Notes under the pieces: generated by a model
Databases searched by the model: none
What the model was told of the DNA's origin: nothing
What the model saw: the letters and a program-made list of their open reading frames with translations, nothing else
Assembly (NCBI RefSeq): GCF_006345805.1
Contig: NW_021834280.1
Span: 1-49,768, forward strand
Reading direction: 5' to 3'
DNA length: 49,768 nt
Origin: Octopus sinensis
Lineage: Eukaryota
In this document: positions 45,507 to 48,499 of the stretch, piece after piece
Layout: every line of letters starts with the position of its first letter
How positions within the stretch are numbered: position 1 is the first letter of the stretch
Position numbers and translations under genes: made by a program

Positions 45507-45620
45507 TGCAACAGCCATTTCCAGCGGATTTGGCAGCTATCGTAATGTCTTCTTCCCTCTCTAGGGTCACAGCCGGCCAAGGTTGATTATGTATTTCAAT
45601 TGTATTTTTTATCTTCATTT

Positions 45621-45774
45621 AGTGGCTGTGTGGTAAGTAGCTTGCTAACCAACCACATGGTTCCGGGTTCAGTCCCACTGCGTGGCATCTTGGGCAAGTG
45701 TCTTCTGCTATAGCTCCAGGCCGACCAATGCCTTGTGAGTGGATTTGGTAGACGGAAACTGAAAGAAGCCTGTC

Positions 45775-45821
<47 letters not shown>

Positions 45822-46079
45822 GTGGTGTGTGTGGTGTTGTGTGTGTGTGTGTGTGTATGTGTGTGTGTTTGTGTGTGTGTGTTTGTCCCCCTAGCATTGC
45901 TTGACAACCGATGCTGGTGTGTTTACGTCCCCGTCACTTAGCGGTTCGGCAAAAGAGACCGATAGAATAATTACTGGGCTTACAATGAATAAGTCCCGGG
46001 GTCGATTTGCTCGACTAAAGGCGGTGCTCCAGCATGGCCGCAGTCAAATGACTGAAACAAGTAAAAGAGTAAAAGAGTA
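45621..46079 (+). mobile_element. SINE family A, young full-length copy
   Basis: Head, CORE-like block, internal (TA)n(TG)n and (GTAAAAGA)n tail. Confidence 0.95.
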
Positions 46080-46188
46080 TAATTAGTTATGAGTCAATAA
46101 AACCTAGGTACATCAGCACGTAGGACGCCAGAAATGGCTAGGTACAATAACGTGCGTTTCCCAGTGACGTAAAACAACAATAAAGTAT

Positions 46189-46491: not shown

Positions 46492-46621
46492 TCCCTAATA
46501 GAGGTTTGGATTTTAGCTGTTCCTTCAAGCATGCCAGGTACCCTATGATGGATACCTCTTATGTGTTTAAATGGACACTGTATTTTTATATATATATATA
46601 TATATATACTATATATATATA

Positions 46622-46853
46622 ATATTATTAGAGACAAAACCACTATTTTGCAAAACAAACAAGGAAAGACTTAATCAATACATAAAATTTTAATAAAAAG
46701 TCAAAAAAACCGCCACTACAATTGTTTCTTGTCCTGATCGACAATCTTCAGGTGGACTTCCAATAATATTATATAATATTTTACTATAAAATTGGATTTA
46801 ATCCTAAATCTGATTTTTTCCCTGTAAATTTGGATTTATTCCCTAATATTTAT

Positions 46854-46858
<5 letters not shown>
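46622..46858 (-). mobile_element. TA-embedded about 235-bp element, hammerhead family 3 (Penelope-like pLTR / retrozyme-like)
   Basis: Non-coding AT-rich insert with (TA)n on both sides and a canonical hammerhead in its middle. Confidence 0.7.
46713..46755 (-). ncRNA. Minimal type I hammerhead ribozyme, all core nucleotides intact
   Basis: CCAC-CUGAAGA-UUGUC(GAUCAG)GACAA-GAAA-CAAUUG-UA^GUGG: stem I CCAC/GUGG, stem II 5 bp, palindromic stem III CAAUUG, GUA cleavage triplet (predicted cut between 46717 and 46716). Confidence 0.85.
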
Positions 46859-46888
<30 letters not shown>

Positions 46889-46903: not shown

Positions 46904-47066
46904 GGCGGAGGAGTGGCTGTAGGGTAATTAGCTTGCTTGTGAACCACATGGTTCCAGGTTCAGTTCCACTGCGAGGCAGTTTGGGCACATGTCTTCTACT
47001 ATAGCCTCGGGCCGACCAAAGCCTTGTGAGTGGACTTGGTAGACGGAAACTGAAAGAAGCCTGTCG

Positions 47067-47142
<76 letters not shown>

Positions 47143-47370
47143 CGTGCGTGTTTGCGTGCGTGTGTGTGTTTGTTTGTCTGTGTTTGTCTCCCCAACATCG
47201 CTTGACAACCGATGCTGGTGTGCTTACGTCCCCATAACTTAGCGGTTCGGCCAAAGAGACCGATAGAATAAGTACTAGGCTTATAAAGAATAAGTCGATT
47301 TTCTCGACTAAAGGCGATGCTCCAGCATGGCCACAGTCAAATGACTGAAACAAGTAAAAGAGTAAAAGAA
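46904..47370 (+). mobile_element. SINE family A, young full-length copy
   Basis: Colinear with 45621-46079. Confidence 0.95.
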
Positions 47371-47844
47371 TATAAGAATTATATAACATGAAGATGGATG
47401 ATATTAGGTTTTATAATAGATCACCATGTTTGTTTCTCTCCTGCCCACCAGCATAAAATCGCTGAGGTTACATCCATATACCATTACACAAGCTCTTTTT
47501 ATTACAATTATTACAATATATTGGAATATTTTTTCAGCAACAGCCCTGCGTGGGCGCTTCGTCGGGTGGAATGTGATTAATCATTTCCACACGGTGAAGG
47601 GCCTACATACTGCTTTTAACAGAGAGTAAATGATTTGTAGTTGTTTATGCCTTTAATGCCTTCTTCCGAGCCAACAACGCCTTCGTCCTTTTTTGCCTCC
47701 CGCTGAAAAACAAGAATCCGATACATTAGCTATTCTATTACTTGTGTCCATTCATCTTATCATAAACTCTTCTTTAGATTAATTGTTACCGAAGCTGATC
47801 TCCTGTATTGACTCTCCTTCTTCCTCTCCATCGACATAAGTAAA

Positions 47845-47985
47845 CTGTTCGGCCAAAAAAGAAGATCCGATAGATTAAGTCCCAGGCTTTAAAAATAAAA
47901 TACATTGGAATTGATTCATTCGACAAAAAATTCTTCAAAGCGGCGCCCCAGCATGGCCGCAGTCGGAAACAAGTAAAAAGGGAAA
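47845..47985 (+). mobile_element. SINE A tail fragment
   Basis: gttcggccaaaa..ccgataga..ccccagcatggccgcagtc..gaaacaagtaaaa. Confidence 0.75.
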
Positions 47986-47989
47986 GAAT

Positions 47990-48499
47990 ATGTCACGTGA
48001 TCACGTGATCGACTGGACTAACGGATGTTGTTATATATCACTGATCACAATGCGATTTACGTTGTTTCAGCTTTTGAATAATGCCAACCCGCTGGGTAGA
48101 CAGGTGCAGACCGATACTCCTTGTGATCGGAAGGTTATTTTGTTGCGGGGTTACCCGAACACAGCCGAGTGGACTGGAGCATGTAAATGTTGTGCCCAAG
48201 AACATAATGCGACGTCCGGTACAGGAGTCCGAACTCAGGATCTAGCGATAGTGAGTGTGACCCCAAGGCCACGTACCTGCACCAAGAAATTTACTCTCCG
48301 AGGCAGAATTTCGGGTGAGGTTGTTTGTGTAAAGTCAGACCAGCAATCGCCCATGCATACCAGACTCTACACTCCCCAAAATGGAACAACGTGAAATAAA
48401 GTGTCTTGCCCCAGAACACAACACACAGCCCGCGCCGGGAATCGAACTCATTACCTCATGATTGTAGGCCTGACTCTCTAACCACTGAGCCATGCACCT

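What the first reader, a model, noticed from the sequence alone, without database searches (positions are those of the whole stretch)
46713..46755. Fully canonical minimal hammerhead ribozyme in a 235-bp TA-flanked element
The minus strand reads CCAC CUGAAGA UUGUC GAUCAG GACAA GAAA CAAUUG UA GUGG. All conserved core positions are present, stem I (4 bp) and stem II (5 bp) are perfect, the triplet is GUA and stem III is the palindrome CAAUUG. Established: this short palindromic stem III is the hallmark of Penelope-type and retrozyme hammerheads that self-cleave as dimers. Here it is a solitary copy with no ORF nearby. Inference: if the locus is transcribed on the minus strand, cleavage could require pairing with a second copy, in cis or in trans.
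Basis: partly seen in the sequence, partly recalled or inferred. Interest (0 to 1): 0.8.

Follow-up and report, generated by a model that had tools for sequence, protein, structure and literature searches.

The report
Spliced Penelope copies carrying a hammerhead
This ribozyme motif is one of about 4,000 copies left by a Penelope-like jumping gene, and short copies like this one were likely copied from the start of its spliced messenger RNA, which would explain how such elements keep their introns.

Summary
The hammerhead is real, letter for letter (46755-46713, minus), but neither solitary nor fully canonical (U-A, not G-C, at pair 10.1-11.1). Its 3' half has 4,092 exact matches in the genome. 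It is the terminal-repeat ribozyme of a Penelope-like retroelement with Hydra-clade protein motifs, 4-8 kb long. The known part ends there. The new part: an intron of mostly 1.1-2.8 kb ends 9 nt before the ribozyme. 1,429 copies carry the spliced junction and 1,185 the unspliced one. Spliced copies pile up at one initiator-like A 23 nt upstream (often with an extra G, likely the cap), and 0 of 133 reach the ORF. All 30 ribozymes followed by the ORF are unspliced, and unspliced copies run through the initiator. So the spliced sense mRNA likely gives only short dead copies, primed just downstream and joined head to head, while long copies come from unspliced RNA. The window's 235-bp element fits this short class. 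Copies starting at the cleavage site are about 1% and hardly enriched, so the copied RNA was uncut or religated. Dimer folding is favoured in silico; cleavage itself is untested.

The parts
46713..46755 (-). Type I minimal hammerhead motif of the element's pseudo-LTR (U-A at 10.1-11.1, 8-nt palindromic helix III, GUA triplet)
   Evidence: conserved in 11 subfamily representatives
46716..46717 (-). Predicted cleavage site, between 46717 (position 0) and 46716 (+1); intact in this copy
   Evidence: hammerhead numbering (established); activity untested
46622..46766 (-). Ribozyme arm: from the splice junction (about -49) to the 'short' end at about +103, joined to (TA)n
   Evidence: matches the pseudo-LTR of long copy L034
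46757..46764 (-). First bases after the 3' splice site (46764 is the first base of exon 2); no intron sequence is present upstream
46762..46766 (.). Junction overlap between the two arms: 5 nt if the template was spliced, 3 nt if unspliced
   Evidence: spliced origin of this arm is inferred
46762..46858 (+). Tail arm: element positions about +85 to +195, in opposite orientation, joined to (TA)n
46588..46621 (.). (TA)n target, left side
46857..46884 (.). (TA)n target, right side

Best explanation
The motif is the terminal-repeat hammerhead of a high-copy Penelope-like retroelement with Hydra-clade protein motifs, and the 235-bp window element is likely a dead by-product made by reverse transcribing only the 5' end of the element's spliced mRNA. 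Shown in DNA: long copies run initiator-like site, 23-27-nt exon 1, GT..AG intron, 9 nt, hammerhead, tail, ORF; short copies carry the exact spliced junction, stop at or within exon 1, end at about +103 or +195 to +211, and sit head to head in (TA)n. Inferred: the element's RT starts inside the RNA at these two sites, each primed by one side of a break in (TA)n; on the capped, spliced mRNA it runs off the 5' end after 150-280 nt, and the two cDNA ends are joined through short overlaps. Inferred: long copies come from RNA that reads through the promoter, in which the intron is not next to a cap and stays unspliced, so only intron-keeping copies can propagate. The ribozyme is predicted to cut only as a dimer; the most likely role (about 45%) is to cut a two-ribozyme precursor into a unit-length RNA that is then circularised and used as the long template.
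For: Long element with RT, GIY-YIG and two ribozymes. Six exon-1 ends seen before a GT donor in long copies each also occur fused to the acceptor in short copies, including a 4-nt donor shift in the subfamily whose first donor is mutated. Genome counts: spliced 1,429, unspliced 1,185; spliced with 22 or more nt of exon 1: 264; with 29 or more: 20. Of the 30 loci returned, 22 stop at 23 nt, 1 at 24, and 7 (from 3 places) run further. In 45 arms from other samples none exceeded 23 nt. 124 of the 264 have G where the template has C; L316 has this G on both arms of a blunt joint. 0 of 133 spliced arms reach the ORF; 30 of 30 ORF-leading ribozymes are unspliced. Unspliced arms reach 157 to over 3,500 nt upstream (45 arms), and 21 of 22 unspliced donors run on past the initiator (script 18, plus 3 with point changes by eye). 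42 of 50 head-to-head rows pair one short with one tailed end. Two-site internal initiation and use of uncut RNA were shown in vitro for a Poseidon element (PMC11167929).
Against: No RNA evidence: the splice site, start site and cap are read from DNA copies only. For the extra G, 20 of 30 sampled cases can also be read as part of the partner arm, 8 are irregular, and only 2 are clearly untemplated. For this window copy the junction sits at the acceptor, so the spliced origin is likely, not shown. Some read-through RNA is spliced (20 matches; L151, L156-L158), so the split is not absolute. No sign of cleavage: arms starting at +1 number 16, against 10 at +2 and 12 at -1, out of 2,288. Covariation is thin: stem I never varies, 2 of 13 pairs change on both sides, 3 of 11 subfamilies have U-U at 10.1-11.1 and 2 of 11 break the centre of the palindrome. 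Metazoan minimal hammerheads cut poorly even as dimers (PMC4209133). Samples come mostly from contig C1.
Confidence: 0.82

Rival explanations
1. The short elements are a self-propagating non-autonomous family (MITE-like or retrozyme-like) founded by one or a few spliced copies and then amplified as a unit.
For: One junction (23-nt arm against 19-nt arm) recurs in about 17 of 30 G-bearing loci; non-autonomous Penelope derivatives are known (bioRxiv 10.64898/2026.07.22.740005; PMC8557442).
Against: That junction occurs with two exon-1 types and with the tail on either arm; other junctions vary widely; six exon-1 types each match a different long subfamily; copies lie head to head, not in head-to-tail tandems.
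Confidence: 0.1
2. Same origin of the short copies, but the long template is a linear read-through transcript of tandem arrays, and the ribozyme is dispensable or nearly inactive (a passenger).
For: No clear pile-up of copy ends at the cleavage site; tandem units exist (L072/L073, L083/L084, L198, L208); ribozyme mutants did not affect insertion in vitro (PMC11167929).
Against: Core and stems stay fixed across 11 subfamily representatives while N7, loop 2 and flanks change; all 30 ORF-leading ribozymes are unspliced and the two repeats of one copy differ by 0-2 substitutions in about 260 nt in 13 of 17 copies, as a circle would give, although close relatives are often as similar, so this does not separate the models.
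Confidence: 0.4
3. Head-to-head copies arise by fold-back or self-priming on one strand (possibly an antisense template), as proposed for rotifer Penelopes.
For: Palindromic junctions are the rule; proposed in PMC3846280.
Against: A spliced junction and a stop at the initiator need a sense template; in the window neither arm contains the other; at the recurrent junction the full-exon arm is the short-ended one in 4 rows (L169, L179, L309, L310), which fold-back cannot give.
Confidence: 0.07
4. The window copy itself is a working, host-relevant ribozyme that cleaves with a partner in trans.
For: Core and palindrome are intact; thousands of possible partners exist; dimer fold is favoured.
Against: It has no promoter or exon 1, lies between simple repeats and short interspersed repeats, and is unchanged from the subfamily sequence (26 distinct contexts with the same 43-mer), so intactness is explained by youth.
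Confidence: 0.04

Closest known systems
Hydra clade of Penelope-like elements (Craig et al. 2021, PMC8557442), including Hydra-1_Obim of Octopus bimaculoides
   Same: C-terminal GIY-YIG, DKT motif, CxCx5C linker, no CCHH, CxxC and CxH around E and N, (TA)n target, hammerhead near the 3' end; many listed Hydra hammerheads also lack G10.1-C11.1.
   Different: Units are 4.1-8.0 kb against 'generally <3 kb'; kilobase intron and repeated promoter modules; asparagine-rich linker; protein and hammerhead differ by eye from Hydra-1_Obim, so it is another family; no intron or spliced copies are described for Hydra in the parts read.
Penelope of Drosophila virilis (PMC2377424; PMC4209133)
   Same: Internal promoter in the pseudo-LTR, short exon 1, 5'-UTR intron ending at helix I of the hammerhead, small palindromic helix III.
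   Different: Intron is 75 bp there, mostly 1.1-2.8 kb here; spliced RNA was seen there by RT-PCR, whereas here spliced copies are fixed in the genome by the thousand; different clade.
Poseidon element PAc of Anolis (Frangieh et al. 2024, PMC11167929)
   Same: Two internal start sites downstream of the hammerhead that define the 'tail'; AT-rich targets; uncut RNA used as template.
   Different: There the sites lie inside the ORF, about 30-40 nt apart, and no strand difference was seen; here they lie in the 5' UTR, about 95 nt apart, and 42 of 50 paired insertions use one of each.
Metazoan non-LTR retrozymes (PMC7229834; bioRxiv 10.64898/2026.07.22.740005)
   Same: Short, non-coding, type I hammerhead, 170-400 nt size range, linked to Penelope elements.
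   Different: Retrozymes are head-to-tail tandems with canonical hammerheads and circular RNAs; these copies are head-to-head pairs bounded by the mRNA start and the RT start sites.
Processed pseudogenes and twin-primed L1 inversions (recalled, no call)
   Same: Loss of intron, extra 5' G, inversion from two primers on one RNA; the window copy's two arms nearly tile one RNA.
   Different: No poly(A) tail; priming is internal and near the 5' end of the mRNA.

Membership tests
Type I minimal hammerhead ribozyme | Core CUGANGA, GAAA and UH in correct order with helices I and II | tested here: met
   invariant in 11 of 11 subfamily representatives
Type I minimal hammerhead ribozyme | G10.1-C11.1 pair at the base of helix II | tested here: not met
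   U-A here; A-U 5, U-A 3, unpaired 3 of 11; many published Hydra motifs also lack it
Type I minimal hammerhead ribozyme | Short palindromic helix III allowing a dimer | tested here: met
   8-nt palindrome; two-copy lowest-energy fold is the dimer; 2 of 11 subfamily rows have a central mismatch
Type I minimal hammerhead ribozyme | Covariation of stems | tested here: inconclusive
   96.5% of cells paired, 2 of 13 pairs change on both sides, 18 of 500 shuffles reach the score; sequences are close relatives
Type I minimal hammerhead ribozyme | Self-cleavage | not testable with these tools
   No assay; genomic ends show at most weak enrichment at the site
Penelope-like element (EN+) | Single ORF with RT and GIY-YIG endonuclease | tested here: met
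   Motifs read directly in natural open frames L042, L046, L050; Pfam gave no match
Penelope-like element (EN+) | Pseudo-LTRs with hammerhead, inverted 5'-truncated partner, tail at one end | tested here: met
Hydra clade | DKT in place of DKG; RWK motif | tested here: met
   DKT present; the RWK site reads KWK in RIKWKAF against RMRWKAF in the published set
Hydra clade | CxCx5C linker, no CCHH, CxxC and CxH flanking E and N | tested here: met
Hydra clade | Insertion into (TA)n | tested here: met
Hydra clade | Generally shorter than 3 kb (descriptive, not strict) | tested here: not met
   Ribozyme-to-ribozyme spacing 4.1-8.0 kb in 13 copies; one 2.5-kb copy is internally deleted
Hydra clade | Placement in the RT phylogeny | not tested
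   No named Hydra proteins were available as tool sequences; compared by eye with the published alignment only
Non-LTR retrozyme | Head-to-tail tandem units of 150-450 bp, each with a hammerhead | tested here: not met
   Single in the window; close neighbours in the genome list are mostly opposite-strand pairs

The most novel reading that the evidence does not exclude
This family is a genome-wide fossil record that settles how Penelope-like elements keep introns and what their hammerhead is for: the capped, spliced mRNA can only yield short dead copies because RT starts near its 5' end, while a dimeric cut between the two ribozymes of a read-through transcript releases an unspliced unit that circularises and templates all full-length copies; two RT start sites are used once each per insertion, making the head-to-head junction and the one-sided tail.
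Probability: 0.4. Interest if true: 0.85.

Novelty: new variant of a known kind. Interest (0 to 1): 0.66.

Why it matters
Penelope-like elements are unusual in keeping spliceosomal introns although they move through RNA; the reason is stated as unknown (PMC8557442), and an antisense template was proposed while an unspliced sense template was left open (PMC3846280). Here both outcomes are in one genome in the thousands, which gives template polarity, a predicted start site and splice sites at base resolution, and a simple reason for intron retention. It also suggests that many 'solo' minimal hammerheads in animal genomes are run-off copies of mRNA 5' ends, not random truncations or host ribozymes; that is directly testable in other genomes by looking for a splice junction upstream. 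The hammerhead as such is ordinary.

Tried and rejected
Rfam: nothing at gathering thresholds in the whole window, no hammerhead at E<=10 locally. Pfam: no useful match for the element's proteins or four homologues. Protein searches gave unnamed relatives at 35-42% identity and 6,093 hits at E<=0.001 without names; they do not fix the clade. Expression: no RNA holder on record was listed; four runs guessed to be RNA, all contigs, were laid on L195:4300-8700: no joint across the intron was listed and no ends piled up, but a 23-nt exon is too short for contigs to bridge and short genomic copies confound the signal, so this is no evidence either way. Pile-up of copy ends at the cleavage site: 16 against 10 and 12; allowing for the A-rich flanks that hide some +1 cases it could be about twofold, not more. 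Repeat identity within copies did not separate circle from tandem read-through. A first reading of the long 3' region as a plain 3' UTR was dropped. Earlier scan notes: none found. Literature searches for spliced or intronless Penelope copies listed no paper that, in the parts read, reports them; Arkhipova 2003 (Nat Genet) and Pyatkov 2004 were not read and could.

Full report
Observation. Rfam does not detect it. The monomer's lowest-energy fold is not a hammerhead; the forced hammerhead fold is -5.5 kcal/mol, while the lowest-energy fold of two copies is exactly the dimeric hammerhead at -22.2. Pair 10.1-11.1 is U-A, not the highly conserved G-C (PMC4209133), so 'fully canonical' overstates it.

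It is a repeat. The 237-bp query gave 1,013 first-look candidates in the 2.7-Gb genome; the 22-nt 3' half has 4,092 exact matches, control 0. The host is likely an octopus: this rests on a weak hit to an Octopus bimaculoides protein and on my recall of the flanking short interspersed repeats, not on a label.

Parent element. L034 holds ribozyme, RT and GIY-YIG ORF (frameshifted in this copy), about 4.8 kb of further sequence, a second ribozyme, then (TA)n. The protein shows DKT, a CxCx5C linker, no CCHH, and CxxC and CxH around the conserved E and N, the marks given for the Hydra clade (PMC8557442 section 11). The published octopus member, Hydra-1_Obim, has a visibly different protein and hammerhead. 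Ribozyme spacing is 4.1-8.0 kb in 13 copies, against under 3 kb for most Hydra families. No tree was built.

Conservation. Across 11 subfamily representatives the core is invariant while N7 is A, C or U and loop 2 varies from 6 to 27 nt; 96.5% of cells pair; two pairs change on both sides; stem I never varies; three rows have U-U at 10.1-11.1 and two break the palindrome centre. This fits selection on a hammerhead but is thin as covariation.

The intron. Many short copies leave the parent sequence exactly 9 nt before helix I, and what precedes them is a stretch found 1.1-2.8 kb upstream in long copies (range 721-2,835 nt), there followed by a GT donor; the parent has a pyrimidine-rich AG at the other side. 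Six different exon-1 ends each occur both before a donor in a long copy and fused to the acceptor in a short copy. In the subfamily whose first donor is mutated, one short copy shows the junction shifted 4 nt to the next GT (L275). Exact genome counts are 1,429 spliced and 1,185 unspliced junctions. D. virilis Penelope has the same layout with a 75-bp intron.

Where spliced copies stop. 264 matches keep 22 or more nt of exon 1, only 20 keep 29 or more. Of the 30 loci returned, 22 stop at 23 nt and 1 at 24; the other 7, from three places, run further and were listed under the set in the same script. In 45 arms from other samples none passed 23 nt. Position 23 is the A of TCACT, which PMC3846280 calls initiator-like in another Penelope repeat. 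124 of the 264 have G just before that A where the template has C. In 30 sampled, 20 can be read as overlap with the partner arm, 8 are irregular, 2 are untemplated; L316 has the G on both arms of a blunt joint. Copying of the cap as an extra G is recalled knowledge; I rate it likely here.

Two template classes. 0 of 133 distinct spliced arms reach the ORF start; 30 of 30 ribozymes followed by the ORF start are unspliced. In 40 regions taken from the first part of the list (contig C1 only), 45 unspliced arms with enough flank reach 157 to over 3,500 nt upstream, and 21 of 22 unspliced donors run on past the initiator (the script scored 18, three more differ by point changes). So RNA begun at the internal promoter is spliced and gives short copies, and RNA begun further upstream is nearly always unspliced and gives long ones. 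That cap proximity drives the splicing is inference from recalled knowledge.

3' ends and junctions. Copies end at about +103 or +195 to +211 after the cleavage site, in AT-rich patches joined to (TA)n. 42 of 50 head-to-head rows have one of each (one row is duplicated and one is a doubtful pair). This matches two internal start sites defining the tail, as shown in vitro for a Poseidon element (PMC11167929). The window copy is a short-ended ribozyme arm (-49 to +103) joined to a tail-only arm (+85 to +195); neither contains the other, so fold-back cannot make it. Its arm stops at the acceptor, which none of the 45 unspliced arms come within 150 nt of (the search required 6 intron bases), so a spliced template is likely but not shown.

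Does the ribozyme cut? Only 23 of 2,288 matches lack the A before the site; 16 of these are true junctions, against 10 of 27 at +2 and 12 of 26 at -1. Spliced short copies therefore came from uncut RNA. Long copies could come from uncut read-through RNA or from a cut and religated circle; DNA cannot tell these apart. A dimer-only ribozyme would cut a two-copy precursor and spare a one-copy mRNA or circle, the model of PMC4209133; I put this at about 45%. RNA data were uninformative.

Literature seen. PMC4209133: parts 1-2 of 4. PMC8557442: passages, section 11, supplement part 2 and supplement search hits. PMC11167929: parts 1-2 of 4. bioRxiv 10.64898/2026.07.22.740005: part 1 of 5 and passages; its supplements were not seen. 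PMC2377424, PMC3846280, PMC3681739, PMC7229834: passages only. Searches listed nothing that, in these parts, describes genomic spliced copies of a Penelope element; papers outside the library may.

Verdict. The hammerhead is a real but ordinary member of a known class. The family is a long, intron-bearing variant with Hydra-clade motifs whose thousands of short copies record a sense, spliced, probably capped template. That bears on an open question, intron retention, and is cheap to test. Interest 0.66.

Noticed in passing
window 45620-46080, 46905-47375, partial 47830-47990: Copies of a short interspersed repeat with an internal (TA)n/(TG)n tract flank the element (families D9, D12, D13); from recall, an octopus SINE.
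   Followed up: no
L104:1300-1830 (G000:C1:8142962-8145983): Both arms carry about 140 nt of a GC-rich foreign exon spliced to the element's acceptor, suggesting a host or other transcript was spliced into the element and copied.
   Followed up: partly
L034:8471 and L031, L033, L192: A subfamily has its first splice donor mutated; one short copy (L275) shows splicing at the next GT, 4 nt on. Many long copies carry two initiator/exon-1/donor modules 0.7-1.5 kb apart.
   Followed up: partly
L082:2961 (minus): Telomere-type TTAGGG repeats directly follow exon 1 in one long copy.
   Followed up: no
L050:439-3015 (minus): A 119-aa stretch with 40% asparagine lies between RT and the linker, like the asparagine-rich inserts of rotifer Penelopes; frameshifts cluster there.
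   Followed up: partly
L317, L318, L319 junctions: Short templated repeats of exon 1 between the two arms, as repeated failed priming during end joining would leave.
   Followed up: no
L157: A spliced copy that also holds tail and ORF start upstream, with most of the element deleted: a rare spliced read-through template.
   Followed up: partly
L034:5865-6858: A 1-kb segment is inverted relative to most other long copies.
   Followed up: no
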